From positions 160,394,001-160,458,000 of the forward strand of contig NC_073377.1 in the NCBI RefSeq assembly GCF_028641065.1: 64,000 bases of DNA, written 5' to 3'. The notes under the pieces were generated by a model. The model saw only the letters and a program-made list of their open reading frames with translations, was not told the DNA's origin and searched no databases. Made by a program: the position numbers and the translations under genes. Positions 33,786-62,100 of this stretch are shown here, piece after piece; position 1 is the stretch's first letter; each line of letters starts with the position of its first letter. This DNA is from Leucoraja erinacea (Eukaryota).

Positions 33786-33854
33786 CTGCAATGTTGAACA
33801 AAAAGCCACTGTGTTAGGGGTGTTATAGATCAGGTTGTTAACCAAATAACAGAT

Positions 33855-34236: not shown

Positions 34237-34304
34237 GACATGTCAAACCAAATATAGAGGATAGACAAAAGTGCTGGAGAAACTCATATTCATAGAAACT
34301 CAAG

Positions 34305-34922
34305 ATTCATAGCAAAATGATTTGAGTATAGGAGCAGGGAGGTTCTACTGCAGTTGTACAGGGTCTTGGTGAGACCACATCTGGAGTATTGCGTACAGTT
34401 TTGGTCTCCAAATCTGGGGAAGGACATTATTGCCATAGAGGGTTCACCAGACTGATTCCTGGGATTTCAGGACTGTCTTATGAAGAAAGACTGGATAGAC
34501 TTGGTTTATACTCTCTAGAATTTAGGAGATTGAGAGGGGATCTTATAGAAACTTACAAAATTCTTAAGGGGTTGGACAGGCTAGATGCAGGAATATTGTT
34601 CCCTATGTTGGGGAAGTCCAGGACAAGAGGTCACAGCTTAAGGATAAGGGGGAAATCCTTTAAAACCGAGATGAGAAGAAATGTTTTCACACAGAGAGTG
34701 GTGAATTTCTGGAACTCTCTGCCGCAGAGGGTAGTCGAGGCCAGTTCATTGGCTATATTTAAGAGGGAGTTAGATGTGGCCCTTGTGGCTAAGGGGATCA
34801 GAGGGTATGGAGAGAAGGCAGGTACGGGATACTGAGTTGGATGATCAGCCATGATCATATTGAATGGCGGTGCAGGCTCGAAGGGCCGAATGGCCTACTC
34901 CTGCACCTAATTTCTATGTTTC
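34305..34922 (+). mobile_element. CR1 3' fragment inserted into a Penelope fold-back (34260-35008)
   Basis: ORF 34389..34835; TTTCTATG tail; AAACTCA duplicated at both junctions. Confidence 0.9.
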
Positions 34923-35136
34923 TAAACTCAGCGGGTGCAGCAGTAACGGAGTTTCTCCAGCACTTTTGTCTACCTTTGATTTTCCAGCATCTACTGTTCC
35001 TTCTTAAAAACCAAATAGAGATGTCAGTTTGTTTCAAATTATATCCAATACATTAGAGAGCTTTCATGCTGTTTACCGATACAATTTGGAATGTCGAGGA
35101 ACATTGTCACCTCTGTAATTAGAGGTATAATCTGAC

Positions 35137-35318
35137 CTGTTTTCGTGGAGGTGCATACAACGCACAGTAGAGGTGTGACCATATAGTGTATGAATACATT
35201 CTCCAGAATCTGCATTCCATACTTTCAATGTGCGGTCAGTGGATCCACTAATGATGATATTGCCTCTCATTTGGGATGACCAGACACCACCAGTGTGCCC
35301 CACTAACGTTCTTAAACA
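35137..35318 (-). CDS. FBXW7: FBXW7 WD40 exon ([60 protein letters not shown]), 182 nt
   Basis: cttag|TGTTTA...AACAG|gtcaga; contains the arginine equivalent to human R465 (STVR). Confidence 0.97.
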
Positions 35319-35715
35319 CTAAGTAAATGGGAAAAAAACAAAATAATTAAGTTGTTGTTAATGAAAATAAATTATTTTCAAGTACCAACATAGTCTTCAA
35401 GGTTAAAATTTGCAGGAAATTTATTTTTAATAATTCATTTGCAATTGCATTTCTGTAATTATTACAATATATTATTGGTTATGCATTTGGAAAATTACAC
35501 TGCTGGAAGTGGTGAATACATGCTCTGAATTTTACTTGAGGCAAATAAAGAGTCCATTAAAAAAACGGTTGAAATTTGTTGTCTTATCATCCGTGTGAAG
35601 TTTGCATTCATGGCAACAGCTTCTTAATGCATTCAACAATCAAAATTTAGCTCAACAGACTTCATTCAGACCGAATTTTTTAAATGATGTTGATTATTGA
35701 TATATGTGCATCTTA

Positions 35716-37786
35716 TGGGCCTGTCCCACTTAGGCAATTCTTCAGCGGACTGCCGGCGACCATCAAGTTGCCAGCAGTCGCCTGAAAAAACGCCAACTGG
35801 AACGGCCACTGTCAGAGTGGAACACCCACACACATCACTTCCTTCGCTAGCCTGCGTGAATTGTTTTGACAGCGCTCCCCCAGCTTGCCCCGTCTAAACA
35901 ATTCACACAGTGCAAAGCCAAGGTGATACAGACACGCACCGCGATGAACAGGAAGGTTGGCGCTGTAATTAAGACGGCTAAAGCACAGTGTACGGTACGT
36001 CCTTTAGAAGAGGGGGGGAGAAGAAGGAGTGGAGACAACATTTAAGAAGCAAGAGAAACACGGTTGTGAAGCTCGGCGAACATTTAACTGGTTCTGAAAC
36101 ATAGAAATTAGGTGCAGGAGGAGGCCATTTGGCCCTTCGAGCCTGCACCACCATTCAATATGATCATGGCTGATCATCCAACCCGTACCTGCCTTCTCTC
36201 CATACCCTTAGCCACAAGGGCCAGATCTAACTCCCTCTTAAATATAGCCAATGAACTGGCCTCAACTACCCTCTGTGGCAGGGAGTTCCAGAGATTCACC
36301 ACTCTCTGTGTGAAAAAAGTTTTTCTCATCTTGGTTTTAAAGGATTTTCCCCTTATCCTTAAGCTGTGACCCCTAGTCCTGGACTTCCCCAACATCGGGA
36401 ACAATCTTCCTGCATCTAGCCTGTCCAACCCCTTAAGAATTTTGTAAGTTTCAATAAGATCACCTCTCAATCTCCTAAATTCTAGAGAGTATAAACCAAG
36501 TCTATCCAGTCTTTCTTCATAAGACAGTCCTGACATCCCAGGAATCAGTCTGGTGAACCTTCTCTGCACTCCCTCTAAGGCAATAATGTCCTTCCTCAGA
36601 TTTGGAGACCAAAACTGTACACAATACTCCAGGTGTGGTCTCACCAAGACCCTGTACAACTGCAGTAGAACCTCCATGCTCCTATACTCAAATCCTTTTG
36701 CTATGAAAGCTAACATACCATTCGCTTTCTTCACTGCCTGCTGCACCTGCATGCCTACTTTCAATGACTGGTGTACCATGACACCCAGATCTCGCTGCAT
36801 CTCCCCTTTTCCTAATCGGCCACCATTTAGAGAATAGTCTGCTTTTTGCCACCAAAATGGATAACCTCCCATTTAACCACATTATACTGCTTCTGCCAAA
36901 CATTTGCCCACTCACCCAGCCTATCCAAGTCACCTTGCAGTCTCCTAGCATCCTCCTCACAGCTAACACTGCCCCCCAGCTTAGTGTCATCTGCAAACTT
37001 GGAGATATTGCCTTCATTTCCCTCATCCAGATCATTAATATATATTGTACATAGCTGGGGTCCCAGCACTGAGCCTTGCGGTACCCCACTAGTCACTGCC
37101 TGCCATTGTGAAAAGGACCCGTTTACTCCTACTCTGTGCTTCCTGTTTGCCAGCCAGTTCTCTATCCACCTCAATACTGAACCCCCAATGCCATGTGCTT
37201 TAAGTTTGTATACTAATCTCTTATGTGGGACCTTGTCGAAAGCCTTCTGGAAGTCCAGATACACCACATCCACTGGTTCTCCCCTATCCACGCTACTAGT
37301 TACACCCTCAAAAAATTCTATAAGATTCGTCAGACATGATTTACCTTTCGTAAATCCATGCTGACTTTGTCCAATGATTTCACCACTTTCCAAATGTGCT
37401 GCTATCCCATCTTTAATAACTGACTCTAGCAGTTTCCCCACTAACGATGTTAGACTAACTGGTCTGTAAACGACTGCTTAGCTTTTTTTTCCCCCCCCAA
37501 TGAGCCAATGCAATTCACCGGTCCGCATCAGCTACAACCTACGAGAACCTTCAACCTCCTGGCAACCCATTAGGAACTCCTAGCGACCCACCTACGGCTC
37601 AAGAATTCTCGCTACTCTCCATGGCGGCTTTATTCTAGTCTCCGCTAATTTTTCAAACATGTTGAAAAAATCACGGCGACTAGAATGAGGCCGCGACTAG
37701 TTCCCAGAATGCGGGAACTCCTCACGGACCACGAAGGCGACTCCCCGGCAACCACCCGCGAACATGTGGCGACATAGACAGGCCCA
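35716..37786. mobile_element. PIF/Harbinger-type non-autonomous element split by a CR1
   Basis: TTA|TGGGCCTGTC...GACAGGCCCA|TTA; perfect 3-bp TSD. Confidence 0.75.
36096..37469 (-). mobile_element. CR1 LINE fragment with a nearly intact reverse transcriptase domain
   Basis: ORFs 36827..37441 (QHGF, YLDFQKAFD, GVPQGSVLGP, FADD) and 36174..36872, joined by one frameshift. Confidence 0.95.
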
Positions 37787-38055
37787 TTAGGCATCAAAAC
37801 AAAATGAAAATTGTACTAACAATCATCAGGCTCGAAAATGCAGAACACAAACTCTTTTTAGTTTATCTTATTTCCTCGACAGCCAAACTTTACTTCCCGA
37901 GTTATGATTAACAAGAATTTTTTTTTAACTACATAAGTTTGTGCATTGTTCTAATTTTTCTAAAGATCTTCCAATTACTAAAACTTACAGGTATATTAGG
38001 AATCAAAATAAAACAAATCAGCAAAATGGAGTTATCAACTCGGGTAAATGATTTT

Positions 38056-38563
38056 AACCATATAACCATATAACAATTACAGCACGGAAACAGGCCATCT
38101 CGGCCCTACAAGTCCGTGCGGAACAAATTTTTTTCCCCTTAGTCCCACCTGCCTGCACTCATACCATAACCCTCCATTCCCTTCTCATCCATATGCCTAT
38201 CCAATTTATTTTTAAATGATACCAATGAAACTGCCTCCACCACTTCCACTGGAAGCTCATTCCACACCGCTACCACTCTCTGAGTAAAGAAGTTCCCCCT
38301 CATATTACCCTTAAACTTCTGTCCCTTAATTCTGAAGTCATGTCCTCTTGTTTGAATCTTCCCTATTCTCAAAGGGAAAAGCTTGTCCACATCAACTCTG
38401 TCTATCCCTCTCATCATTTTAAAGACCTCTATCACGTCCCCCCTTAACCTTCTGCGCTCCAGAGAATAAAGACCTAACTTATTCAACCTATCTCTGTAAC
38501 TTAGTTGTTGAAACCCAGGCAACATTCTAGTAAATCTCCTCTGTACTCTCTCTATTTTGTTGA
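38056..38563 (-). mobile_element. CR1 3' fragment, (GGTTATAT)n-tail subfamily
   Basis: ORF 38139..38525, paralog of 563..949. Confidence 0.9.
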
Positions 38564-38680
38564 CAAAATATTTTTACATGGAACCGATTCTAATTAGTTG
38601 AAATAGATTTCCAGCATTTGCAAAATTTGGCATTTGACTTAAGAAGTAATCATGAAATATGTGGAACTGAAGAGATGTAC

Positions 38681-38794
38681 CTTTCCTGTAACAGCTGACC
38701 ATACTTTCAGTGTGTTGTCGTCAGAGCCACTGACAATTCGGTTCCCGCAGAACTGTAGGCATGTGATTACATGATCATCGTGACCTTTCAGCAC
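38681..38794 (-). CDS. FBXW7: FBXW7 WD40 exon (VLKGHDDHVITCLQFCGNRIVSGSDDNTLKVWSAVTGK), 114 nt
   Basis: cagcag|GTGCTG...GGAAAG|gtacat; WD40 repeat 1. Confidence 0.97.
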
Positions 38795-38942
38795 CTGCTG
38801 AGAAAGAATATTGCAATGTTCAGAGTCAGGTAAAACTGTAATTCATTACAAAAATATGAATCCATCACATTCATTTTTCATGCCCAAAGAGTAATTCTGG
38901 CTACACCAGGCACTGATCTCAATCCAGTTAAAACGTTTCATA

Positions 38943-39240
38943 TCAAGTCAAGTCAAGTCAAGTCTATTCATCACATACACATACGAGATGTGCAGTGAAA
39001 TGAAAAGTGGCAATGCACGCGGACTTTGTGCAAAAAACAAACAAACAACAAACAGAATGGAACAGAATCACATATTACATATTGTGGGAGGAAGGACTGA
39101 GGAAAAAAACAGCAATTAAAAAAAAAAAAAAACCCAGTAGAATGGTACAGTAGAGTTAGTCCCTGGTGAGGTAGGAGTTTACAGTCTGAATGGCCTCTGG
39201 GAAGAAACTCCATCTCTACCTCTCCGTTCTCACAGCATCA
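38943..39240 (-). mobile_element. Rex1/Babar-type LINE 3' end with (CTTGA)n tail
   Basis: TCAAG tandem tail; SFFPEAIQTVN remnant on minus strand. Confidence 0.6.
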
Positions 39241-40412
39241 GAGTGGGTTTGCTGCTCTTTTGTAAACTAGCTGATCAAAATCATGTCCTGTTCAATTTTC
39301 ACCAACCCCCTGTCCTGCCATTAACGTAATCATGAAGGATAAATCACTGCACTGCAATCAGTTTTGGCAATCCTGGCTACATTTCTTTTCTCTCTTGCGC
39401 CATTCCCCCAACACATACTGATAACATTCTGATTTAAGACTCCTATTAAAATCAGCACAAACGAAAAAGACTTGGTTTTCAATCAAATAACAAAGAAGTC
39501 AATGAGTATTCCTGCAATTCCAAAACACCAAAGTCCCAGTATACACAGTAAAATTAAAGCCGAAGGGGTGAGTCATTGAGCAATGTTGTGATACAAGGAG
39601 TGATGGCTTCATCTCTCTCACAGGAGGAGAAAATAATTAGTTTCGGCCATTTGCTTATCCTTGCAGCTGATCATGTTTTATATTACTAAATTACGTTGTC
39701 AGCTAAATATAATGGGACTGCTACATAATGTTGGGAAAGACGTGTAGATCATTTACAGTATACGGCATGCAGCAAAAATTTTATTATGTTGAAATAATTT
39801 CTAACAGCAGGAATGCAACAGAAAATCTCGCCCAAGATATAATCAATAGATAGACGGTAATGTTGCGGAAAATATCACAACCAATGTTTGCTGCTCAGTG
39901 CAGAAGTTGATGAGGCTTGAATACAATATCCCTGTTTCCGACATTTATTTGTTAACTAATCATTCCCAAAGCTAGACCTCTTTCAAGGTGAACAAGACAA
40001 AGTCTGGAGATTCAGGTTACTTATTGAGGAATTGTAAGTATCATTGTAAATGGGGTGCTACGGTCCTGTTCTTATCCCAGTGGAATTTCATTTTACTCTT
40101 TTTTTATCATTAATGTTTTATTATTGTTAATGTTTATTGTTTTCTGAGTCATTCGTAACTGTCACTGTATGTCATGTGGTTACTTGTGGGCAGGACACTA
40201 AGGCAAATTCCTTGTATGTGAATACATGGCCACTAAACTTAAGTTACTTTTAATACCTTTGCTTATGATGATCAAATAATGGAGTTTTGGAATGTTTAAA
40301 TAAATGAATACAAACTGCAGCAGCATTATCTTAATGGAAATTATTCATACAACATTTATTTGTAAGATGTACAGGATTTAATGAAGAGCTTCCACAGAGG
40401 TTAATTAGCAAT

Positions 40413-40686
40413 GCCCCGGGGGCATGAACATCGAATTCTCCCAATTTTGTTAGTCCTTGCTGTCTCCTCCCCTTCCTCAGCCCCCCTGCTGTCTCCTCCC
40501 ATCCCCCAGCCTTCTGGCTACTCCTCCTTTTCCCACCCCCCGCCCCCGATCAGTCTGAAGAAGGGTTTCGGCCCGAAACGTTGCCTATTTCCTTCGCTCC
40601 ATAGATGCTGCTGCACCCGCTGAGTTTCTCCAGCTTTTTTGTGTAACCTTCGATTCTCCAGCATCTGCAGTTCCCTCTTAAACACC
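40413..40686 (+). mobile_element. 5'-truncated Penelope-like element with an intact minimal hammerhead core (40552-40585)
   Basis: PGGMNIEFSQFC* ORF end; CTGAAGAAGGGTTTCGGCCCGAAACGTTGCC; TSD TAGCAAT at 40406-40412 and 40687-40693. Confidence 0.82.
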
Positions 40687-41368
40687 TAGCAATAGATTGG
40701 TCAGTTTATATCATCTCACTTACAAGTAGAAACAGAGCCACAATATATGACTTTGCAACTGGGTGTTGCAGTATAGCTCTTCTTTCTTGCCCTGCTCTGA
40801 AGAAATCTGTCCCCGCACAAAGTGGACGAGGAGGGGTTCCCAATGCAGAGACTGGCTATTGTTTTTTTTGCAATATTTAGAGAATCACTATCAGTGCTAG
40901 CTTTTTGAGTACCAATCAACAAACTTGCAGTTGAATGGTGTTACCATTCATTTTAATTAAAAAAAAACTGTTTCATCTATTTCGCTGTAAAAGAGGCACA
41001 AAGAAAATCCAAAAAATGTCACATTTTTTCTTATTTTATACTGATCTCCAAAACTCCACAACCACCCCTACTCCTAAATAAATATTAGACTGAGCCAGTC
41101 ATTGTTCCTTCCCATAGTCTCACTCAGCCCGAAGCATTCTGCCAGTCAGAAGGCCAGATGCACTGAAAATCTGTGACTGAGCTTGGACTGCTGAATGGAA
41201 GAGAAGACTGCCTGCTGATGTGTGGAAAGAGAAGGCACGTTAAGGGACGGAAGAGGGACTACGAATGAATGATCCAACCCATTTGCTCATGGCTTGGACC
41301 CCACAAAACAGCATAGAATATGAAACAATTCCCCAAACTTCAGCACCTCAATTCTCTTCAGACAGTAC

Positions 41369-41505
41369 CTTTGGGATTTTTAGATCTCCACAGCGCCAGT
41401 TAGTGTCGATTCTGTGTTGTCTGATGTAGGCACTTTTCCAAGGGCTGTGAGCAAAGCCTGGTTTGATCACTTTTCTTCTTTTGATGTATACAGGTTCATT
41501 TATTC
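41369..41505 (-). CDS. FBXW7: FBXW7 linker exon (INEPVYIKRRKVIKPGFAHSPWKSAYIRQHRIDTNWRCGDLKIPK), 137 nt
   Basis: tctag|GAATAAAT...CCCAAAG|gtactg. Confidence 0.96.
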
Positions 41506-41736
41506 CTAGATAAGAAATAATTTACTTTTGTCAACTGATTTGCTAACGACTCTCATAAAAGATAGAAAAATATTAACTTTATAAATAGGTACTAATGATT
41601 TTAGCGCCCATTGATACGATCGCTGTTACATTGTCATTTATCTTCCAGGATTAAGGAGCCCAACCAGAGTAAAAATACCGTTTTGTTCCAAAGCTGCAAA
41701 TGCCAGAATTAAAATATATTTCCATTTTACATTTAC

Positions 41737-41860
41737 CTTCCTCTTTACATTTCTCTCTCCAAAGCAAGTTATCTTCAGCTAATATTCTCCAATAGCGACA
41801 GGTTTGTGCTGCTTGTAGCAAGTCCTTGGGATCCAGGAATGAAAGAACATATAATGCCAG
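41737..41860 (-). CDS. FBXW7: FBXW7 F-box exon (LALYVLSFLDPKDLLQAAQTCRYWRILAEDNLLWREKCKEE), 124 nt
   Basis: ttatag|CTGGCA...GAGGAAG|gtaaat; canonical F-box motif. Confidence 0.97.
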
Positions 41861-41990
41861 CTATAATGCAATTAAGTTGAAAAAAATCTAGTTATTATCT
41901 TTCTCCAATGGTAAAGGTCCTTCATTGAAATTGGTAGTGGAAAAATTAAAGCACAAAGTAAATTCAAAAGCAGTTAAACCGACAGGATAA

Positions 41991-42357
41991 AGGGCCTGTC
42001 CCACCAGCATGCGACTGCATGCGGCAAGCACGACCTAACGTGGTCGCTTGAGCCGTATGGCCTCGCGGGCCCGGTCTCACTTTGATCGCCGGAACCGTAT
42101 GGAATTGTGCGGAGCTGGTCCCGACATTGCGGGGGGCTCCGGAAAACTGACACGGTCCAAAAATTCTGCGCGGCAACGGCCTGCCAGCCCGCAGCCGCAT
42201 TGAGGCCGTACGCATCGCCTTGACGGGCGTGCGCAGCGTCTCGACGCCGTGCACCTTCGCTCGAACTTCCCATCAACTCGTACGGGATCACTCGACCTCC
42301 GCGCGGCCCCCGTATCCGGTTTGGTCGCGCTCACCGCATGCACGTGGGACAGGCCCT
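41991..42357. mobile_element. PIF/Harbinger-type MITE
   Basis: Perfect 14-bp TIR AGGGCCTGTCCCAC; perfect TAA TSD. Confidence 0.85.
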
Positions 42358-42661
42358 TAATGCCTCCCTTACACAGTAGGAATGTGCAAACAAAACAGTA
42401 TTTATTGTCTTTAACACGACACAGAAATGAGATTTAACAATTCCATCTTGACAGTGGTTGTCACTTGTGTAATCATTGGATTTTTAATAGAAATGTTGTA
42501 ATTTCTATACTACATCAACACATTTGAGAAACTGAAAACATTAATACAGTTTTGATTTGTATTACGTATTCAACTTGAAGCATTGCACTGTCAATCGTGC
42601 AATAGCTACCAGTAAGAAAACTAGCCAAAGCTAGAAATGTCGCTTTTTCTGAAAAACGCAC

Positions 42662-42796
42662 CTCTTTTGGTAGGAGTGATATGAAATCTCGTTGAAACTG
42701 AGGTTCTATAACCTGCATCATGTGTTTTACTTGCGTAGGTTCACAGCTGTCAATTAATTCATCTAATGCAAGCAACCTTTCTGGTCCACTCCAACT
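42662..42796 (-). CDS. FBXW7: FBXW7 exon, D-domain to start of F-box (SWSGPERLLALDELIDSCEPTQVKHMMQVIEPQFQRDFISLLPKE), 135 nt
   Basis: ctttag|AGTTGG...AAAGAG|gtgcgt; part of ORF 42515..42775. Confidence 0.97.
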
Positions 42797-42997
42797 CTAA
42801 AGAAATAAAATAACTACATTTAGTGGAAATAAAAAAAATAAAAAATGGTATGACAAAAGTGTAATTTGAATAAGTACGGAAATAATATGGGGTAGTTAAT
42901 TTATTGAATATACAAGTTGATAATGCAGAGGTAGAGACAGATTAATCTTCAATGTTCCTTGTATGTAAATACTTGGCCAATAAACTTACTTACTTAG

Positions 42998-43182
42998 AGT
43001 ACACAAAAATGCTGGAGAAACTCAGCGGGTGCAGCAGCATCTATGGAGCGAAGGAAATAGGCAACGTTTCGTCCCGAAACGTTGCCCATTTCCTTCGCTC
43101 CATAGATGCTGCTGCACCCGCTGAGTTTCCCCAGCATTTTTGTGTACCTTCGATTTTCCAGCATCTGCAGTTCCTTCTTAAA
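42998..43182 (+). mobile_element. Penelope-like fold-back insertion (hairpin centred on the ribozyme position, catalytic core absent)
   Basis: ~73-bp arms around a 3-nt loop (CAACGTTTCG tcc CGAAACGTTG); TSD TACTTACTTAG at 42987-42997 and 43183-43193. Confidence 0.8.
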
Positions 43183-44799
43183 TACTTACTTAGTGGCAAT
43201 AACCAACATTTATTGCATTATTTAAAAAGTGCTTAGATTAAAGTAGACAGATTTCTATTACAAGTACTGTATACCATGCAAATACAACCATTACAATGAC
43301 AGAGCAGCACATCCCTACATTTTCAGATTTCTGATCATAACCTTGCACCTCCCCTCTTCTGCAGTTGTTGTAGCATTTGCTCATAAGTAATAGCGAGTGC
43401 TATGAGCTTCGCCCTTGTTTTGACAGCAATCAATTCAAAAGGGTATTATTTACATTGGTTTAATTGCATTGCATTAATGCGTGGAAACAGGAAATGAAAG
43501 CAATATTTAAAAGCTAAAAATCAAAGTATAAAGTTAAGTGCATATTTACCTTTAATCAATGAGAAGAAAAGCAGCGGCAATAGTTACAGAATGATGAAAG
43601 TGAAAAAAGTGAGGGGCCAGCTAAAGCACAGATAGAAAGAAAAACAAGGAATAGAAACTTGCAATGCAAAGCTTTCTTGATACTTAAAGGTCTATATAAA
43701 TTCCTGATTTGGAATTAAATGTCATCCCAAATTTCCCCCAAGTAGCATTCCACTACTCCTACGACTATGTTCTTAATATATCATGACAAAATAGCATTAT
43801 CCTAAACCATTACTGTGCTTCAATCTCTCTCCATCTACTTAAATTAGGAGTGGTGGGCAAGATGAAAGGATTACTCTAGTGCAACTCTGCAAGTATTATT
43901 ATTTGTCCATTATTATCCTCAAAGATAACGAGAACCCCAAGAGAACAATTTGGGGAAAACTGAGATCAATCCAGCTTAACTGGTTTCTTACACTACCTCA
44001 CATTAAGCACCATACTCTGGTCCACCTCAATATCTATCAATCTTGCACTAAAAAAAAAGCAGTTTCTCAAAGAAAATGGGACATCCAAAGCAATAACTCA
44101 GACATAGCCTGGGGTGGAAGATTGCAACCTTCCCGTGGTCCGCCCTGTTTCGACTAATGCAATCAGCTCGACGTGCACAAACAGAAGATCAAATAGAACA
44201 AGTTGTCCTGCAACTTTAGGCTGTGCACGCCACAGGAAAGAAGAAGACATAGCCTACAAATGGCACTAGAACCCCACACCAATCATTCTTTGACATTATT
44301 CCCAGAGTCTTGTTGGAATGGGAGTTCCTGAATCCAACAACAATGAAAGGCTTAAAATGAGTTTGCATTTCAAAATGGTGTTTACCTAGGAGAGCCTGCT
44401 GCTCCCAGTATTTCCATTTGTTCACCATCCATACGGTTGATACCAGTGTTGAATAATTGTTGTGTATTTTGTAGATAGTACCAACTGCAGCCACCACGAG
44501 TCAGAAGTGGAGGGAGGATATCTTTAAAGAGTTGAATGGAGTGTTAGTAATGTGGTTGCCTTGGCCACAGGGCATCTTGAGAGTTGTGGGAGGTGTATTC
44601 ATTGAGGCATATGAAGGGTATTCCATCACACTTTGAGCCTTGTAGATGTTGGAAAGGTTTTGGAGAGTCAGAATATTCAGCCCCAGATCTGCTCTTCTAG
44701 TTACAGTATTTATATGCCTAGCGCACTTAACATTTGAGTCACTGGTGAACAATGAGGATCTGGCATCAAGAATGCCACTGAGCATCAATGGAGAAATAA

Positions 44800-45830
44800 A
44801 TTCAGACGAGGGAAATTGGGAAAGTTAATAGAGATGTCTTGTGGACAGACTATATTACAGTTGAGGTGGTGCTGGATATTCAAAGAGGTATGGAGATAGA
44901 TAAATCTCCTGGGCCCGATCAGATAAATCCAAGGACACTGTGGGAACCTAGAGAAGAAATTGCATAAGTCCTGGTTGAGATATACAAATCATCATTAGAT
45001 ACAGGCGAGATGCCCGAAGACTGGAAGATGACTAATGATTCACTATTTTAGAAGGGCTGCAAAGAAAAACGTGGCAATTATAGACAAGTAAGTCTAATAT
45101 CTGTAGTAGGAAAGTAACTGGAGGGGATTTTGATGGATAAATATACATGTGCTTCGAAAGACAGAGGTCGATTAGGGATAGTCAGCATGGTTTTGTACGT
45201 GAAAAATCTCACAAATGTGATCACATTTTTTTGAAACAGTAGCTAAGGTTGACAAAAAGCAGGGCCATATACAAAATTGGAGATATGGACTTCAGCAATG
45301 TATTTGATAGATTCTGCATGGAAGGCTAGTTTGCACAGGATCGAGGGAGGGCTAGATAACTGGATACATGGCAGGAAGCAGAGAGCAGCGGAAGTGCGAT
45401 TCAGGGACCATTGCTGTTATTCATCTATATGAACGATTTGGATCAGAATATACAAAGCATGACGAAATATTGTACACGATACCAACATAGGTGGTATCGT
45501 AGATAGTGAAGATGGTTATCAAGAAATTCACCAGCATCTTGATTAACTGCTGAGCAAAAGGCAAATTGATTTTAATTCAGATATGTGCTGGGTGATTCAT
45601 ATTTGGAAGTCAATCCAGGGCAAACCCTTCACAGTTAATGGTAGGGCCCTACAGAGTACTGCAGAGCAGATGGTTCTAGGAGTACAAGCACAACATTCCC
45701 TGACACTAGTGTAACAGGTAGATGGGGTGGTGGAGAAGACATTTGGCATGTTGCCATTTATCAGTCACGGAACTGAATACAAAAGTTGGAACGTCATGTT
45801 ACAGTTGTACAAGATGTTGATGAGGTTATA
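44800..45830 (+). mobile_element. Old degenerate CR1 RT fragment
   Basis: KSPGPDQI, NYRQVSLISVVGK, SQHGF, YMDFS remnants. Confidence 0.75.
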
Positions 45831-45834
45831 TTCA

Positions 45835-47105
45835 TGTCATAAGGAGTAGAATTAGGCCATTCGGCCCTTCAAGTCTACTCCACCATTCAATCACAGCTGA
45901 TCCTAACCCCATTCTCCTGCCTTCTCTCATAACAAATGCATTTTGTTGTCTCATTCTCCTGCCTTCTCTCATAACCTCCGAAACCTGTACTAATGAAAAA
46001 TCTATTTATCTATAGCTTTAAAAATATCCATTGACGGCCTCCACAGACTTCTGTGGCAAAGAATTCCACATATTCACCACCTTCTGACTAAAGACATTCC
46101 TCCTCATCTCCTTCCTAAAATAACATCCTTTAATTTTAAGGCTATGACCTCTAGTCCTAGATTCTCCCACTAGTGAAAACATCCTCTCCACATCCACTCT
46201 ATCCAACCTTTCACTATTCTGTATGTTTCAATGAGACCTTCCTCATTCTTCTAAACTCCAGCGAGTACAGGATCAGTGCCGACACACGCTCATCATAGGT
46301 TAACCTACTCATTCCTGGGATTATTTTTGTAAACCTCCTCTGGACCCTTTCCAGAGCCAGCACATCCTTCCACAGATATGGTGTCCAAAATGGCTCACAA
46401 TACTCCAAATGCGGCCTTACCAGCGCCTTATAGAGCCTCAGCATTACATCCCTGTTTTTGTCAATAGGCAATAGGTGCAGGAGTAGGCCATTTGGCCCTT
46501 CGAGCCAGCACCGCCATTCAATGTGATTATGGCTGATCATCCCCAATCAGTACCCCGTTCCTGCCTTCTCCCCATATCCCCTGCCTCTGCTATTTTTAAG
46601 AGCCCTATCTAGCTCTCTCTGAAAGCATCCAGAGAAGCCTCCACCGCCCTCTGAGACAGAGAATTCCACAGACTCACCACTCTCTGTGAGAAAAAGTGTT
46701 TCCCCGTCTCCGTTCTAAATGGCTTACTCCTTATTCTTAAAGTCCTCTTGAAATAAATGTTAGCATTGAGCTTGCTTTCTTTGCTACCGATTCGAATTGC
46801 AGATTAACTTTTTGGGAATCCTGCATCTCCGATTTCTGGATTCTCTCCCCATTTAAAAAATAGTCTATGCCTTTATCCCTACTACCAAAATGCATGACTC
46901 CACACTTTGCTATACTATATTCCATCTGCCATTTCTCTGCCCATTCTCCTAACATGAAGAGTAGTGGCCCCAGCACCGGCGACTGCAGAAATCCGCTAGT
47001 TACTGGCAGCCACCCAGAAAAAGCCCCCTATATTGCCACTCCTGCTATCCATGCTAGTATCTGCCCTTCGAGACCGTGGGCTCTCATCTTCCTTGGCAGC
47101 CTCAC
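45835..47105 (-). mobile_element. CR1 fragment with a nested second CR1 3' end (~46460-46740)
   Basis: ORFs 46018..46206, 46214..46546, 46737..46976. Confidence 0.8.
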
Positions 47106-47924
47106 ATGTGGCGCCTTATATAAAGGTGTATAAAATCATAAGGGGAATAGATAGGGGGAATCAAGAACTAGAGAGTATAGATTTGTTAAATTTAGAAAAA
47201 TGTAATGGAAACCTGACAGGCAGCTTTTTTCCACACACAGAGAAATGAGTGAAAGAGGAAAGAGGTCTTACGTCCAAAATATTCCACGCAGTGATATCCG
47301 GAGACAAGGACAATTCACAACCAACAAGCACAACCAAATTCCAATGGGCAACTTCCTTCCCCAATTAGTAGAGAGTTTTCTCCTGAATATCCAGTGACCT
47401 TTGTTTTGTTCGCGGTCTTTGATGAAGTATTCAATCAAATGTCACCTGCTGTCATGCTCATCTCACATTTGAAATTCACTCTTTGATTTCTGTTTGGCCC
47501 ATTGGTCTTATGGTGCCCCGAGCCACAACCTAAGTCGAGTATGTCACTGGACTAAAGATTGAAAGGGAACAAACAGGCCAGAAAGTTGTCAGATTGAATT
47601 TGTCTTCTCTTTTGTGGACTGGACATACCTGGGCATGTTTACAACATTATTGCTTCAAAAAACGTTAAAACTATATATACTACACCCAACAAATTCTGAC
47701 CCGTCCAAGCCTTTTTTGCACTAAGTATGACCCAGTCAATATTGGGCAAGTTAAAGATGTCTACAATGCCAAGGTTGTTGCTTTGGCAAATTCTATCATC
47801 TATCTTGTGATTTGCTCCTTTATTTCCCACTAACTTTGGGAAGCCTTTCGTACAATTCCATCAGAGTGATTGCATCTTCCTTATTTTGGAGCTTTCCCCC
47901 CACTGCCTCTGGTGGATTCCGACC

Positions 47925-49210
47925 CAAACCACCCCCTCCTCTGGTACTTCCTCCAGCAACCACAGGAGATGTAATATTTGTCTCTATACCTCCTCCCTCA
48001 CCTCCATTCAGACACCAGAGGTCCTTCCAAGTTAGACAGAGGTCCATGTGTACGGCATCTAATCTCATCTACTGTATCCAGTGCTCCCGATATGCCCTCC
48101 TATACATCAGCGTGACCAAGCGCAGACATAGAAACTTTGGTCTACAAGGGCCTGCTGGATCTCCCTAGCCATTTTAACTCCACTTCCCATTCCCATTCTG
48201 ACTTCTCTGTCCACAGTCTCCCCCAATGCCCGAGTTATGCCACATGCAAACTCAAGGAATTCCTTATATTTTGCTTGGGTAGCTTACGACCCAAATGGTA
48301 TGAACATTGAATTCTTAAATATTAGGTAACTACATAATCCTTCCCCCTCTCCCTTCTTCCCCTCTTCCCCACCTGGACCTGCACCTACCTCACCCCTCCC
48401 GGTCCACCAACATTCCTTCACAATTCCAAACTCTTCAATTCTTTAGTCTGACACCTTCTGTATTTTCATCTGTCTCCTCAGATCCTGGTGAACTTCTACC
48501 GCTGCACCATCGAGAGCATCCTTACCAACTGCATCACAGTATGGTATGGCAACTGCTCTGTCTCCGACCGGAAGGCATTGCAGAGGGTGGTGAAAATTGC
48601 CCAACGCATCACCGGTTCCACGCTCCCCTCCATTGAGTCTGTCCAAAGCAAGCGCTGTCTGCGGAGGGCGCTCAGCATCGCCAAGGACTGCTCTCACCCC
48701 AACCATGGACTGTTTACCCTCCTACCATCCGGGAGGCGCTACAGGTCTCTCCGTTGCCGAACCAGCAGGTCGAGGAACAGCTTCTTCCCTGCAGCTGTCA
48801 CTCTACTAAACAACGTACCTCGGTGACTGCCAATCACCACCCCCCCCCCCGGACACTTATTATTTATTTTTTATTCAAATCGTTTGCTATGTCGCTCTTC
48901 AAGGGAGATGCTAAATGCATTTCGTTGTCTCTGTACTGTACACTGACAATGACAATTAAAATTGAATCTGAATCTCTGGACATTGTCCAACTGTCTGCCT
49001 ATCAAAAAAAAACCTCCTCCTCACCCAAATGAGCCCATTACCTGCCAGGTTTCGTCCCCCCCCCCTTCCCCCCCTCGTTTCCAGCTTTCATCCCCCCCGC
49101 CCCTACAATCAGCTTGAGGAAGGGTCCGGATGTAAAACAGCACCATTCCATGTTCTCCAGAGGCGCCGCCAGACCTGCTGAGTTACTCCAGTACTGTGTG
49201 TCTTCTTTTG
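47925..49210 (+). mobile_element. Degenerate Penelope-like element: GIY-YIG endonuclease, C-terminus and terminal repeat
   Basis: SFQVRQRSMCTASNLIYCIQCSRYALLYISVTKRR (IY...YI GIY-YIG pattern); LGSL..NGMNIEF end at ~48330; terminal repeat at ~49100-49210; interrupted by Rex1. Confidence 0.8.
48469..48975 (+). mobile_element. Rex1/Babar LINE 3' fragment (young)
   Basis: ORF 48488..48826 NFYRCTIESILTNCITVWYG...NSFFPAAVTLLN; (GAATCT)n tail. Confidence 0.88.
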
Positions 49211-50532
49211 CCTCAGTGGATGCCCATTGTAGAACTATCTGAAAATATTACTTTTTACAGTCAAATTGTGAAGGGGTGTTTATTGATGAAAGAGGCATGA
49301 TGATTATGATTGGACCTGGGACTTAAAGAACATGGAACAGTACAGTACAGGAGCAAACTCTTCGGCCCACAATATTTGTGTGGAATATGATGTCAAACTA
49401 AACTAATCCCTTTGCCTGCACATGATATACTGTATCCCTCCATTCCATGCATGCGACTGCCTCATAAATGTCCAAAATTACCAAAACAAATGACCAAAAG
49501 CCTCATAAATGTCATTATTGAAACTGCTTCCACCACCATCCCATGGCAGCCCGTTCCAGGCACCCACCACTCTGTGTAAAAAAAGCTTGCATTGCACATC
49601 CCCTGTAAACTTTCCCCCTCTCTCAAAGCTATGCCAGAGTATTTGACGTTTCCACCCTGGGAATTCTTTAGAGGAATTCTTTCTCTACCCTCTCTTGACC
49701 TCGAAGAACTCCAGAAATGACACCAGGGGTTAAATCATCTAAGCACAACATGTTATTCTACCCGATTGGTAAGAATTCCTTTTAGGGACAGAAAGTAAGT
49801 GTTGTAAAGAAAAACTTTGATCTATCAAATTTATTATTCCATAAGTGAACTTTGGCAGAGCAGACCACATTTTAATCTGCAAACAGCATCCTCAAGTTCA
49901 CTGATTTATCCGCAGCCGTGGATGTCTCGTGATCTGTTAATGCTCAACAGATCATGAAGGTGGGGTGTGGAGAGCAAAAAAATGAAAAGAGAGGGATTGT
50001 CCATGGCATTTGCAGACCTGCCTTCTGACAGCATTGCAAACTCTTCAGTTTTGTTCAATGTACACTTCTTATAGACAGCACAAATTTCAAGTTTTCCATT
50101 GCTATTTCTCCAGCTGTTTTCCTTGCTTTTGATTTTAAACATTACCTTTCCTCAGTTTTAATGTTTCTATATTACCTTGAGCCAAACTAAGTGTCACTTT
50201 ATATACTGCAGGCTCTAGTTTTGAACATCAACTTCATTGATAAACTCTGGAATCTTGCTTCGCAATCATGTGAGTATATCTCAAATAAACCTGTTAATAT
50301 GGCTGTTCATATATTATCATTAAAAACAAATGTCTTCAAATACAATATTGTGAGGGAGATGTATAGATGTGCTCAGTCAAGGCAGGAATACAACAGCATT
50401 TCTTCTCAGAGTCTGAATATTTTTAAGGCAGATGTAGATTCTTTATAGAAATAACATCTGTCCATTCCCTCTACAGATGTTGCCACAGACACAGTTCCTC
50501 CAGCAGTCTTTTTTCGCTCAATAATCCAGCAT

Positions 50533-50901
50533 ACAAACATAGAAAATAGGTGGAGGAGGCCATTCGGCCCTTCGAGCCTGCACCGCCATTCGATATGATC
50601 ATGGCTGATCAGCCAACTCAGTATCCCATCCCTGCCTTCTCTCCATACCCCCTGATCCCTTTAGCCACAAGGGCCACATCTAACTCCCTCTTAAATATAG
50701 CCAATGAACTGGCCTCAACTACCTGTGGCAGAGAATTCCACAGATTCACCACTCTCTGTGTAAAAAATGATTTTGTCATCTCGGCCCTAAAATACTTCCC
50801 TCTTATCCTTAAACTGTGACCCCTAGTTCTGGACTTCCCCAACATCGGGAATAATCTTCCTGCATCTAGCCTGTCCAACCCCTTAAGAATTTTGTAAGTT
50901 T
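50533..50901 (-). mobile_element. CR1 3' fragment
   Basis: ORF 50618..50878. Confidence 0.9.
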
Positions 50902-53626
50902 CAGCAGTCTTTTATGTCTCCATTAGAACCATTTCTGTTGGCTATTCCTTTTTCTCAGTCTAGATTGTGTGGCTTTGCTGGACATGTACCTGCACTCTAG
51001 ATCCACATCAGCAATGTCATATCCAGATACTGTATAACAGCTTGTCTGATCCCACTTGCCATATGACATTTTATCAGAGATATTCCCATTGTTCGATATA
51101 CTTTGGTGCTACCCTGACTATCTTGCTCAAAAAAGACCGCCTAAAGGGGCCTGATCTGAAACATCGCCTTTCCACGTTCTCCCAAAACGCGGCCTAACCC
51201 GTCGAGTTACTCCAGCATGTTGCATTTTTTGCTCAAGATTTCAGCATCTGCAGTTCCCTGTGTCTGCTGTATACTAATTTGATTCTCTCTTTCTCAGATC
51301 TAATGAAGAATCGCTCATTGGAAATGTTCAGCTTTTCTTTCCCCAGATTCTACCAGTCCTGCTTGGTTTTTACACCATTTCCTGTTCTCATGGTCACATT
51401 AGGTTACATATGAGACTAGCCTGCCAAACGGGTCCCACCATCTTATCATTAACACCTTAATGCACAGACCAAAACATTCAACCAGATGATAACTACCACC
51501 AAGACACATTTCCTCTCAACTGACACTCTTTTTTTCACTCATCCCTTCCCATCTTCTTCCGACTGAAAACTAATTTGCCTTTGTTTCGTTTCCAATTTGC
51601 CTTTGATTTGCTCTTTTTAGCGTTGACTGTTTTTATTTCAGGTTTGAGGGATCTGCATTTTTTAAATGTTTGATAGCAAATAAAAGATAGCAGAGGGAGC
51701 TCGGAAAGATGGGCAAGATAGCACTGGGTACTGTTAATGTATATGTGAAAACTGACATAGTGCCTTTGGATGAAGTGACTGAAGGACTGTATGCAAATAA
51801 ACATTTGCCGGCTATGAAGAGAGCCTTGGGGAAACACTAACTTGGTCTTTTTGTATGACTTTGATAAGGAGCTGCTACAGTGAGCTTCTTCACATGCAAT
51901 GTTCAGTATTACACATGAAACCCATTTATACACCGTAGGTTTATTAAGTCCCAAAAGTAATGGATTTGTATTAGTGCTAAAACAACATGCTTAGTGGACT
52001 GATGCATTGTCAAAATTAATTTTTGCATTCTCTGCCACAACCAAATTCCATTGAGCATTTGTATATAGTTTATTTCTATGTGCAAATACCAACTTCTCAG
52101 CTAAACAGTAAATCTGAAGCAAATTACATGCAATACTGTGGATCCCCACACAAATTGCATGCGGAATGGAACTATTTCCATATTTGCAATTTGTATGTAA
52201 CAAACACAGTTACTGGGTTGTGTATGTGTGCTAATTACTAGAGAAAAGCATTCCATGTTAAAAGGCAGGATCTGAAGACTATAGATATACCAAATCCTTT
52301 CTAGTATTATTATTGTTTTGCAATTCTGTTAAGTCCGATTCCACATGCGAATCAACAGATATGGTTAGAATCTTTTTTTCTCTGATATAAATATGAAAAC
52401 AAATCAAAACGCAAATAAAGTCCCCATTATTCTGCAAATATAGATACAAATTCAACATCTATCAGAATATATTTACTCAATATTTATTTGGCCAATATTT
52501 GAAAATAGTGCACAAGCTAAAGAACCTAAAACATATATACCACATATAAGCAGAAACTGAATTGTAACAGCAATGGAAGCTATTCAGCCCATCAGATTCA
52601 TGCTGGCTTCTTGTGGAGCAAGCTAGTCAGTCTCATTCAGCTCCTTCATTACAACTCAAAATATTTTTACTTGGGTGTCTATCCATTTCTCTTTTGAAAG
52701 ATGGTTTCTCTTGCTTTTGCAAGCAATACATTTAAATCATAACTCTTCCCCACGTAAATAAAATTCCCCCCCATCCCCATGAATTTGCCCCCCTTGGTTC
52801 TTGAAGAGAATAATGTTTTTTTTGGCCTCTATTCCCCACATGCTCTTTTATCATTTTTTCTTTAAGAATAAACTAAGCATCTCAAATCTAAAGTAGTTAT
52901 GTCCATGGAAATAATCTAGTAAATCTCATTTGTACCTATTTTCAGGACCTTTTATTCTAAAATGTGATGGACCAGAAGTGGGCACAACAGTTCAGTTGCA
53001 GTATAACTAGTGTTATAAGGGTTGAACAGAGTCTACTTGCTTGTACAACAGTACTCTCAATATAATGTCTCAGATCCTGTATCTTTAGTAAAGACTCCCT
53101 CAATATGCCAAGCAACTTTGTTCCCCTCCTTTTCTGCATAGCCTTTACAGTTGTTCTATTTAGTCCAACGTCTCTTGTTCCAAAATGTATCATTTTATTC
53201 CGCCATTTGTTTGTGCATTCTACCAATCTTTGTATTTTGAGTCTATTTCTATTCTCCCTCGCCATTTGCCATACATTAGGTTTGGTGGTGGAGTCTTGAA
53301 ATTTAAATCTGCACTTCTAAATCCGAGTCATTAATATAGATCAAAAAAGTAGTGGCCCAAGCACTGACCCCAGGTGATTACCATTCTCCAGTCTAAAATA
53401 CCTTCAGTCCAAGAGTCAATTATTTTGATTCCATTGGCAGATCACTTTCCCTCATGAGATAAATAAAGTTCTATTGTATCGTGCCGTTATTCATGCTGAT
53501 GCTAACCCTTTGATTCCACAAGTTTCCATTCTACTTAGCAGCTTTTTATGTAGGGAGCCTAATTTATTTTGATTTCAATCATTTTTCACAATTAAATATC
53601 TCATTGCTGCTTTCGCACACGCTAAC

Positions 53627-53768
53627 CTGAAAAGTTTTCAACCAATCCTGAAGTTCTGGAGGGGGCTGGATGGATGTGATCCGGCGTCGCGGTTGCCCTT
53701 GCCCATTTGCTGCCCTCAGATCACCAAAGGTGGTGGGTGTTGCCGAACATGGAACCAGCCCAGCGGTG
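53627..53768 (-). CDS. FBXW7: FBXW7 exon (STAGLVPCSATPTTFGDLRAANGQGQPRRRITSIQPPPELQDWLKTFQ), 142 nt
   Basis: ggcag|CACCGCT...TTTCAG|gttagc; phases match the neighbouring exons; start of dimerisation domain. Confidence 0.95.
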
Positions 53769-56925: not shown

Positions 56926-57008
56926 CTTTTGTAGTCTGAGCCTTTGCAAGGTTTCTTTCCTGAAGAGAAAGACCGGACCTCAGGGCCAGGGTCCAATTTT
57001 CTCTTCAT
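56926..57008 (-). CDS. FBXW7: FBXW7 first common exon (MKRKLDPGPEVRSFSSGKKPCKGSDYK), 83 nt
   Basis: ttgtttcag|ATGAAGAGAAAA...TACAAAAG|gtattt; homologous to human MKRKLDHGSEVRSFSLGKKPCK. Confidence 0.95.
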
Positions 57009-58981: not shown

Positions 58982-59020
58982 TTTAAAAAAGATCATTTTT
59001 AAAGTGCCGTAGAAACCCAT
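58982..59020 (-). CDS. FBXW7: FBXW7 beta-type alternative first coding exon (short N-terminus MGFYGTLKMIFFK)
   Basis: Minus strand reads ACC ATG GGT TTC TAC GGC ACT TTA AAA ATG ATC TTT TTT AAA|GTAAGT. It matches the end of the mammalian beta-specific exon (MGFYGTLKMIFYK, recalled). Phase-0 donor joins the common exon ~2 kb downstream. In-frame stops lie upstream of the ATG. Confidence 0.9.
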
Positions 59021-59033
59021 GGTGAGCGTTGGT

Positions 59034-59114
59034 TCAGATCCTGGAGAGGTCGGCTGATGGTTGCGGATACAGTGCTCCTTCAGGTAGACAGTGCGATGTC
59101 CCCAACATGGACAT
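59034..59114 (-). other. Upstream ORF (MSMLGTSHCLPEGALYPQPSADLSRI*, 26 aa) in the beta 5' leader
   Basis: ATG at 59114-59112, TGA at 59036-59034, 13 nt before the main ATG and in a different frame. Confidence 0.6.
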
Positions 59115-59128
59115 GCTCAGGCACGTCA
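59109..59128. promoter_or_regulatory. p53-family response element in the beta exon
   Basis: GGACATGCTC (perfect RRRCWWGYYY) + AGGCACGTCA (2 mismatches), zero spacer; mammalian FBXW7-beta is a known p53 target. Confidence 0.7.
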
Positions 59129-62100
59129 AAGAATGGGCGAGCTTACACTAACAGCTAGAAGAAAACCGCCGCCTCCACAAGCCAATGCAGTAATTCTCAC
59201 ACGACAAAGCTGTACTTGGGCTTCGGAGGGGGCAAAAAAAACAGAACAAAACAAAAAGGAGGAGGGAGGGGAGAGCTGATGCAGGGGCAAGCTAGCCTTG
59301 TCCAATAAACAGGTTCTGCTGTGCCTTAACAGATGGGTGAAACTGCACTGTGTTCCACCCCCTGCCTTGTAAGAAAGAAATGGCTCAGCCCAGCCAGCAA
59401 CAATGTGAGCTGCACGTCAATTAGATGAACAAAGCCCCAGGGAGCCTGCAAGCTGAGGGCGAGCGAAACGGAAGGAGAAATGCAGCCGGTTTCACATGAT
59501 TAAATTCAACTCATTTTCCTCCCCCCCCCCTCCAACTCATTTCCCTCCCCATTTGCATTCTGCGGGCAAGTGGAATGTGTGGAATTATTGATACATCCCA
59601 GGATTCTGTCTCCGGTGTTCAATGAATCGCATTTACTTTTTTTTATTATTATTGAAAAGGGGACTTTTCTCTCACCATTTACTTTGCGGTCTGTATGTCG
59701 ATGCTGTCTCTCACACACACACACACAGACAGAGACAGACCAAGCCTCTCTCCGGCACCCAACCCTCTTGTCCTTCATCGTGTTTGAATCATTTCACCTG
59801 CCTTTTCTCACAACAAGCATCATGCAGGTGGTATGTGGGCTAGAACTCAGGGGGTTTTTTTCCCCCCCATCTGCCAATGATCATTCATTGCCAGAGCAAT
59901 TGGAGCCGGGTTGGCAGAGGTCGGCCACCTACTTTGGGAGTTAGTTTTGCTTCAAGTGCGCTCTTGGAAACCCCTGAGAGGCAACTCCCAACCTCTGCAG
60001 AAATGAGTGGAATGCCAAGCATGCAGAGGTCACGTTAGTTCTTTGAAGCATCGATGACCCCTTGACGTTAACCTTCTGGCGTGCAATTCCTGATCAACCG
60101 CGCCAAGATTTGAGAATGGTAGGCTGAGATTTTCAGATTTTGAGATTTTCGGAGCCAGACAAGAACCTTTGCAAAACAGGTGTCGACTTGAACCTAAACT
60201 GTTCAAAATCAGTTTCACACCCACTTTCTTACTGCCCTCCAATGAACAGACCAGTGATAGCCCTTATAAAGTGTCAATCACATGCATACTTTTTCATTTT
60301 CCAACATAGGAAACGTGACTGTACATTGACATTGCACAGGGTTGGCCAGAAACGGAATTAGCATAAATAGAAAACTTAACATATTGTACAAAGGTGGTGT
60401 TCAATGAATCTTTAAGAACATATAAGAGATAGCAGCAGAAGTAGACGAATCTATCTGAAGAAGGGTCCCCACCTGTAACAGCATCTATCCATGTTCTCCA
60501 GATACACTGCCTGACCCACTGAACTAATCCAGCACTCTGATAACATAGTTATGCTACCTGACCCGCTGAGTTGCTTCACCATTTTGTGCCTTTTATGTAA
60601 TTGCACATCTGCAGTTCCTTGTGTAATTGAACATCTGCAGTTCCAGAACATCTGCAGACTACAAGTCTGCTCTTTTACTCAATAGGTTTTGGCTGATCCA
60701 ACCTTAGATTCCGCATGAATTTCTCATTCCCTTCCACATCTTCTGACTTTATTAAAAAAATTCACCTTGAATATATCCGATGACTCTTCCCGTCTAGGAT
60801 AGAATTCCAATAATTCATGACTATGTGAAATTCCTCATTATTGTCTTAAATAGGCTTTCCCTTGTAAGTTCTAGACTGCCCTATCACAGTCCTCTCAGCA
60901 TTCACTCCATCAATCCCCTTCATAATCTTATCTATTTCAATTAGGTAATTCTCATTCATTTAAAATTCAACGTCCACACTGCTCAATCCTTCTTCATACG
61001 TCAGCCTTTTCCTCCAGGTGAACCTCCCAATAGCACTTCCAAGTACAGTATACCATTCCTTAAAATTTGAGACAAAAACTGGACCCAGTACTCCAGGTAT
61101 GGTCTCACCAGCACTCTATAAACTTGCATCATCAGTACAAAGTATTAATTTCAGATGGTTGTTAAGAGTAAATCGTGCTGGAGTCACACTTGCACCAAAC
61201 TGGGGAAGGAGGGCTTATTGTCTTTCCTTATTTTCTATAGTTTCAGGGTTACCATTATTGATAGCAGCGTTTTATTCCACATATGTAATTATTTGGATTT
61301 AAACATCTCAGTTGTGATGATGGGATTTGAACTCTTATTTCTGGGAACATAGTACTGGCCACTGCATTGTCATCCATCTTACCACAATGCTTGTGTACCC
61401 GATGGCACATATGTACACAAGCATTAGCGAGAAAGATTTAAACCCTCAAGTTAGTGGAGACTTTCTAAGTGAAGAAGAACCTGAAGGCTAGATGTCCAGT
61501 TTTGGCTGGCATGTACGTATTGAGCTGATTGGGGGGTTCCTCGACGTGAAACATTTCTATAAACCTAACAGAGTTACTCCAGCATTTTGTGTCTACCTTC
61601 AATGTAAATAGACAAGGTTGAAATACATAAGTTATAGGAATTGGAGGCATCTGGTGTCGGGGGAAGAGTGGGATAGAGGATGTGGGTACAGGACTGGAGG
61701 TAGTTGCACAGAGAAGGAATACTGAATGGCAAGGCTTCAGGGAAATTAAGGACAACGATTGCTAATACGTGCATATCACTGAATTTCCTCTCCGGAGAAG
61801 AAGATGATCTATGAAGGAATACACGCTATCCATTCACCAAAGATGTGTCCAAAACCTATTTGGTGGCCACAGAAACACCTACATTTTGACTGTGATCCAA
61901 CAAGATGAAGTGGGAAATGTTACCATTTATACCATTGCAAAATATATTATCAGAAAACACAATCAAAATTGTGTCTAGGGTGAGGTTTGTGGACAGAGAA
62001 GATCCACTATGAAAACTTTAAACACTGATAGCCCACTTAGTGCTCACCAAAGAGCACTTGCAAGGGATAAGCACAGCACTCTGTACTAAGCTCTTAATCT

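What the first reader, a model, noticed from the sequence alone, without database searches (positions are those of the whole stretch)
58982..59135. FBXW7-beta N-terminus is split: the mammalian-like segment is an out-of-frame uORF
Seen: one minus-strand frame reads L-T-C-L-S-M-S-M-L-G-T-S-H-C-L-P-E-G-A-L-Y...stop (59036-59034). It resembles the mammalian beta segment LTCLSMSTLESVTYLPEKGLY (recalled). It has a TAG upstream and stops 13 nt before MGFYGTLKMIFFK, which is in another frame with its own upstream stops. The predicted beta protein is therefore 553 aa with only 13 unique residues and lacks the hydrophobic N-terminal segment of mammalian beta. Inference: the membrane-anchored beta extension may have arisen by fusing ancestral leader/uORF sequence to the main ORF, or this lineage lost it. 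The uORF could also tune translation.
Basis: partly seen in the sequence, partly recalled or inferred. Interest (0 to 1): 0.7.

Follow-up and report, generated by a model that had tools for sequence, protein, structure and literature searches.

The report
Ancient p53 site mimics split protein
The short reading frame upstream of this skate-like fish's FBXW7-beta protein looks mammalian mainly because it overlaps a 20-base stretch identical to the known human p53-binding site, which likely switches the gene on under stress here too and which mammals likely absorbed later into a longer, membrane-anchored protein.

Summary
The layout is real. A 26-codon uORF (59114-59034, minus strand) ends 13 nt before the start of a 553-aa FBXW7-beta. 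Four of four spliced contigs from three organisms keep it without indels, so it is no assembly error.

The resemblance to mammals is centred on DNA, not peptide. Bases 59109-59128 match the listed, ChIP-occupied human FBXW7 p53 response element 20/20. Its CATG core is the uORF start codon, and it carries two stops in the main frame. The uORF peptide shows no selection in two relatives (pN/pS 0.88 and 1.35 on 9 and 5 changes).

A short beta form is already known in zebrafish and frog, and 42 of 43 beta proteins fetched start at the same methionine. The mammalian extension is therefore likely a later gain from leader DNA. No amniote beta sequence was retrieved, so frame continuity in mammals is recalled, not tested. 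p53 binding and uORF translation are untested here. The scan noted this p53 site before in another skate genome (e1-9223589).

The parts
59109..59128 (.). p53/p63-type response element, two half-sites with no spacer (plus strand GGACATGCTCAGGCACGTCA); its CATG core supplies the uORF ATG
   Evidence: 2 mismatches to consensus; 20/20 identical to the human FBXW7 element in PMC4470028 supplement 4; unchanged in organisms E and F
59034..59114 (-). 26-codon uORF plus stop, out of frame with the main ORF; second in-frame ATG at 59108
   Evidence: start, stop and length kept in 4 of 4 contigs; pN/pS 0.88 and 1.35
59091..59150 (.). 60-nt block with no change in either relative; contains the p53 element and both upstream ATGs
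   Evidence: permutation p = 0.0012 for the longest invariant run
59021..59033 (-). 13-nt spacer between uORF stop and main start, ending in a strong start context (CACCATGG)
   Evidence: same length in E and F, with 4 and 1 substitutions
58982..59020 (-). coding part of the beta first exon: 13 codons, followed by a GT donor
   Evidence: 4 of 4 contigs leave the genome at 58982 and continue into exon-2 sequence
59021..59495 (-). 5' leader of the beta transcript; no ATG in 59494-59115
   Evidence: organism A contigs reach 59226 and 59218, next to a skipped repeat; the organism E contig reaches 59495; ATG scan. True start site not mapped
56926..57008 (-). first common exon (exon 2)
24234..53768 (-). 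span of the other nine common exons (F-box and WD40 region) down to the stop codon

Best explanation
The segment is the untranslated leader of the short FBXW7-beta transcript, and it holds a 20-base stretch identical to the human FBXW7 p53 response element, which likely lets p53 or p63 switch on this isoform and likely explains the mammal-like residues. Shown: the element's CATG core is the first AUG of a 26-codon uORF, the element puts two stops in the main frame, and the uORF peptide is not conserved outside the invariant DNA block. Inferred: the uORF is a by-product of the binding site; it is probably read by some scanning ribosomes and lowers beta output, with the main start reached by leaky scanning. 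Inferred: the short form is ancestral in jawed vertebrates, and on the line to mammals an indel between element and main ATG put the uORF frame in register with the coding sequence, after which an upstream start and hydrophobic segment were added.
For: Identity 20/20 to the human element, listed among 228 literature elements (grade 4 of 5) and in a ChIP-exo-occupied region (PMC4470028 supplement 4). A review places a p53 site in exon 1b (PMC10474666). FBXW7 is a direct target in human (20 of 28 ChIP sets) and mouse (9 of 9) (PMC6755996 supplements) and p53-upregulated and needed for arrest in zebrafish (PMC12145846 passages). A p63 peak in 16 datasets is assigned to NM_018315 at distance -288 (PMC7735755 supplement 2). 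Identity with the human oligo falls to 3 of 6 right after the element, and the second ATG is absent in both the human and mouse oligos. In relatives all 14 variable sites of 59021-59150 lie outside 59091-59150 (p = 0.0012), and uORF changes fall on codon positions 1/2/3 as 4/2/3 and 1/3/1. 42 of 43 beta-type proteins among 188 fetched start at the 13-mer. Zebrafish and frog beta exons lack the hydrophobic domain (PMC3404928).
Against: The consensus match alone is not significant: 3 matches in the window against 2.24 expected. The invariant block is 40 nt wider than the element (post hoc p about 1e-4), so something else is also conserved. Start, stop and length of the uORF are kept with no indel in 58982-59150 in both relatives, while organism F has 6 indel rows just upstream; this could mean selection on the uORF as such. 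pN/pS rests on 9 and 5 changes from two unnamed relatives, with 2 uORF changes shared. No reptile, bird, mammal, lungfish, coelacanth or lamprey beta protein was among the named hits, so the in-frame reading in mammals and the direction of change rest on recall and parsimony.
Confidence: 0.7

Rival explanations
1. The uORF is itself selected as a sequence-independent translational brake on top of the p53 element: its start, length and 13-nt spacing matter, its peptide does not. This can be true together with the best explanation.
For: It holds the first ATG after 380 ATG-free leader bases (3.1-4.6 expected, P 0.04 and 0.008); the first ATG has A at -3; no indel between 58982 and 59150 in E or F, and the stop is unchanged; the invariant block covers the first eight codons.
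Against: The ATG is fixed anyway by the p53 core. An unchanged stop in both relatives has chance probability 0.41. The second ATG is missing in human and mouse oligos. No ribosome data.
Confidence: 0.25
2. The uORF encodes a conserved peptide, or is the remnant of an ancestral long beta N-terminus that was split in this lineage.
Against: pN/pS near or above 1. Seven of the matches are the element itself. The upstream hydrophobic region is broken by indels in F and too diverged to align in E. Loss would be needed separately in cartilaginous fishes, teleosts and frogs. None of 188 fetched proteins resembles the stretch (best local score 36).
Confidence: 0.06
3. The frame break is an assembly or sequencing error.
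For: None found.
Against: 0 differences in two spliced contigs and one DNA contig of organism A; same frame in E and F; database proteins of skates and sharks start at the same methionine.
Confidence: 0.01

Closest known systems
Human FBXW7-beta (hCDC4b) exon-1b p53 response element (Kimura et al. 2003, PMID 12824889, not readable here; sequence from PMC4470028 supplement 4)
   Same: Identical 20 bases, same gene, same first exon, a few hundred bases from the transcript start (human peaks about 200-400 nt from the start; here 367 nt from the 5'-most contig end).
   Different: Here it lies in an untranslated leader and opens a uORF; in mammals it lies inside coding sequence (recalled). Binding is shown in human, not in this fish.
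Short FBXW7-beta of zebrafish and Xenopus (PMC3404928, PMC2819241)
   Same: Beta exon without the hydrophobic domain; 13 unique residues; 553 aa in the frog and skate proteins fetched.
   Different: The passages read do not mention a uORF, the p53 element or the homology of the leader to the mammalian extension.
Conserved-peptide uORFs (class recalled, no call)
   Same: AUG-started short frame in a transcript leader, with position kept in relatives.
   Different: No purifying selection on the peptide; conservation sits in the DNA.
Dual-use coding DNA (transcription-factor sites inside coding exons) and N-terminal extensions recruited from 5' leaders (classes recalled, no call)
   Same: In mammals the element would be both binding site and codons.
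   Different: The fish state shows the element conserved without any coding role, which suggests the site is older than the codons.

Membership tests
p53 response element | Two RRRCWWGYYY half-sites, short or no spacer, few mismatches | tested here: met
   59109-59128, spacer 0, 2 mismatches, one perfect half-site; consensus as given in PMC4470028
p53 response element | Same sequence and place as an element bound in another species | tested here: met
   20/20 to the human FBXW7 element, ChIP-exo occupied; neighbouring bases match printed human and mouse FBXW7 oligos
p53 response element | Bound by p53-family protein and needed for induction in this organism | not testable with these tools
   no ChIP or reporter data for this fish
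FBXW7-beta isoform | Own first exon with the 13-residue start spliced to ten common exons | tested here: met
Mammalian-type membrane-anchored FBXW7-beta | Hydrophobic N-terminal extension in frame with the main ORF | tested here: not met
   two main-frame stops inside the element and no in-frame ATG in the leader
uORF | AUG-to-stop frame inside the mature transcript, upstream of the main start | tested here: met
   4 of 4 spliced contigs span it
uORF | Translated by ribosomes and affecting main-ORF output | not testable with these tools
   no Ribo-seq or reporter data
Conserved-peptide uORF | Purifying selection on the encoded peptide | tested here: not met
   pN/pS 0.88 and 1.35 overall, 0.97 and 1.49 for codons 9-26; few changes, so low power
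Structured RNA element | Folding above shuffled background or an Rfam match | tested here: not met
   z = +1.05 for 59010-59160; 0 Rfam matches in 56500-61000

The most novel reading that the evidence does not exclude
One CATG does two jobs across jawed vertebrates: as DNA it is the core of the p53 switch that turns FBXW7-beta on, as RNA it is the first AUG of the leader and opens a brake uORF; mammals then fused that uORF frame to the main ORF and built the ER anchor de novo on top of a 450-million-year-old binding site, so a tumour suppressor gained a new location from its own regulatory DNA.
Probability: 0.25. Interest if true: 0.65.

Novelty: new member of a known kind. Interest (0 to 1): 0.4.

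Why it matters
Only 8.9-12.8% of p53 binding sites are shared even between mouse and human (PMC6755996), so a letter-perfect site in a cartilaginous fish would date the p53-to-FBXW7-beta link to the base of jawed vertebrates. In mammals that conservation could be blamed on coding constraint; here it holds without a coding role. It also suggests that the ER anchor thought to define the beta isoform is a late addition, and that the 13-residue start is the old part. It is a caution too: a conserved binding site can pass for a conserved peptide.

Tried and rejected
No whole genome is held. Search with the 45-residue main-frame stretch found no candidate. Search of 1.84 billion representatives with the 37-residue stretch gave 5 hits, all tandem-repeat proteins matched through summed weak stretches, rejected as noise. 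No amniote beta protein came back, so the mammalian extension could not be aligned. In one search the raw RNA run X24 laid 0 reads (about 6% read), and X3 and X13 did not cover the exon; these blanks are no evidence. The run index listed no holder on record as RNA. RNA structure and Rfam: nothing. No convincing alpha- or gamma-type first exon in the window (best E 0.16). Papers not held: Kimura 2003, Matsumoto 2011, one p53 survey. The frog-human beta alignment in the supplement of PMC2819241 could not be read. The element's letters were not in the stored Riege supplements, and the PMC10111352 supplement gave no exon coordinates. Look-ups of earlier findings by sequence and by place were empty.

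Full report
Observation. Its first ATG is at 59114, giving a 26-codon uORF, with a second in-frame ATG at 59108. The main ATG at 59020 is 94 nt downstream of the first, so out of frame, and 13 nt after the stop. The main frame has stops at 59128-59126 and 59119-59117. An 11-exon model with GT-AG introns gives 553 aa, identical at 553 of 553 positions to stored protein P0151, named in two skates. The window is therefore from a skate or close relative (inference).

Not an error, and inside the transcript. Four contigs, one from each of four runs, were laid on 58950-59650. All four leave the genome at the donor (58982) and continue into sequence that reads as the start of exon 2, so they are spliced, although the runs are only guessed to be RNA. 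The two from organism A cover 58982-59226 and 58982-59218 with no difference. Those from unnamed organisms E and F (90-95% alike) have no indel between 58982 and 59150. The E contig reaches 59495, so the leader is probably at least 475 nt. A DNA contig covers 58991-59066 with no difference (it may come from the assembled individual). The other three runs did not cover the exon.

What the resemblance is. Bases 59109-59128 match the p53 consensus with two mismatches and one perfect half-site. That alone is not significant (3 matches in the window, 2.24 expected). But the 20 bases are identical to the human FBXW7 element at hg19 chr4:153273772-153273791, listed among 228 literature elements with grade 4 of 5 and also within a ChIP-exo-occupied region (PMC4470028 supplement 4; rows and one part read). 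A review states that a p53 site lies in exon 1b (PMC10474666, passage); the original paper was not readable. FBXW7 is scored a direct target in human (20 of 28 ChIP sets) and mouse (9 of 9) (PMC6755996 supplement rows). A p63 peak in 16 datasets is assigned to NM_018315 (PMC7735755 supplement row); that it covers the same 20 bases I did not compute. Printed oligos confirm homology independently: a human shRNA target matches 59123-59103 at 18 of 21, the first 16 in a row, and a mouse primer matches 59122-59103 at 18 of 20 (PMC12648003 passages; compared by eye). The mismatches start just past the element and remove the second ATG in both mammals. The element's CATG core is the uORF start, and seven consecutive matching residues are the element read as codons. 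Both main-frame stops lie inside it, so while the element is conserved no extension can run through it in the present main frame.

The peptide is not under visible selection. In E the uORF has 9 base changes (codon positions 4/2/3) altering 5 of 26 residues; in F 5 changes (1/3/1) altering 3. pN/pS is 0.88 and 1.35. All 14 variable sites of 59021-59150 fall outside 59091-59150; a run of 60 has permutation p = 0.0012. The counts are small, and two uORF changes are shared by E and F. The region shows no folding above shuffles (z +1.05) and no Rfam match.

Results against a pure by-product reading. The invariant block extends 22 and 18 nt beyond the element (post hoc p about 1e-4), which the p53 site does not explain. 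The leader has no ATG in the 380 nt before the uORF (3.1-4.6 expected; P 0.04 and 0.008), and the first ATG has A at -3, so scanning ribosomes would meet it first. The uORF has no indel in E or F, while F has 6 indel rows in 59151-59206. The unchanged stop is weak evidence (chance 0.41). A sequence-independent brake remains possible.

Direction of change. Of 188 proteins fetched, 43 hold the beta 13-mer; 42 start with it and one fish gene model has 15 unrelated residues before it. The named ones are sharks, skates, teleosts (both gene copies, by their names) and frogs. Zebrafish and frog beta exons are reported to lack the hydrophobic domain of mammals (PMC3404928, passages); PMC2819241 calls the frog form slightly truncated (passages). 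Parsimony favours a short ancestor and later gain. No amniote beta protein was returned, so the length of the mammalian extension (74 residues, 627 aa in all) and its continuous frame are recalled, not tested; where among amniotes it arose is open.

Mechanism. Shown: layout, splicing, identity with the human element, lack of peptide constraint. Inferred: p53 or p63 binds the element after stress and induces the beta transcript, as in mammals and in line with p53-dependent fbxw7 induction in zebrafish (PMC12145846, passages). Inferred: the CATG core acts as an upstream AUG that takes part of the ribosomes; a 13-nt spacer is short for re-initiation (general knowledge), so the main start, in a strong context, is likely reached by leaky scanning. 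Inferred: a later indel fused this frame to the coding sequence on the line to mammals.

Novelty. The short beta form and the human element are known. Ten searches (listings of up to 25 papers each, titles and abstract starts only unless cited above) showed no paper on a uORF in the beta exon, on the element in cartilaginous fishes, or on the origin of the extension. Subscription papers, Kimura 2003, Matsumoto 2011 and the frog-human alignment in the PMC2819241 supplement were not visible and may bear on this. The scan itself noted the ancient p53 site earlier in another skate genome (e1-9223589), seen after I had reached the same result; that is a repeat, not independent support.

Verdict. 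Real and well explained; new member of a known kind; interest 0.4. The boldest open reading, one CATG serving as both p53 core and brake AUG and later seeding the mammalian ER anchor, has probability 0.25.

Noticed in passing
window 59412-59420 and 59121-59129 (minus strand): The 9-mer TTGACGTGC occurs twice in the beta leader, once overlapping the p53 element (3 copies in the window, 0.16 expected; word chosen after seeing it). It resembles a CRE half-site or hypoxia-element core (recalled). The upstream copy lies in 59398-59448, which is unchanged in organism E.
   Followed up: partly
window 59330-59495: Second conserved block at the 5' end of the leader (13 substitutions reported and 1 insertion in organism E), separated from the uORF block by 179 nt that diverged but kept the same length.
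   Followed up: no
window 58982-59020: The 13 beta-specific codons have no change at all, silent sites included, in organisms E and F, and match a printed human oligo at 20 of 21 bases: constraint beyond the protein is possible.
   Followed up: no
window 47621-47640: A p53-consensus match with 1 mismatch in the intron between 53627 and 42796; within chance expectation, and it may lie in a repeat.
   Followed up: no
window 38794-38797: Tandem acceptor (CAGCAG) before exon 7 explains the 553- and 554-residue forms in databases, which differ by one Gln at residue 221.
   Followed up: yes
window 59497-59492 (minus strand): A start-stop ATGTGA lies at the 5'-most end reached by any contig.
   Followed up: no
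window 58857, run X13: Organism D has an (AAT)n run at this intron position that the window lacks (loose end).
   Followed up: no
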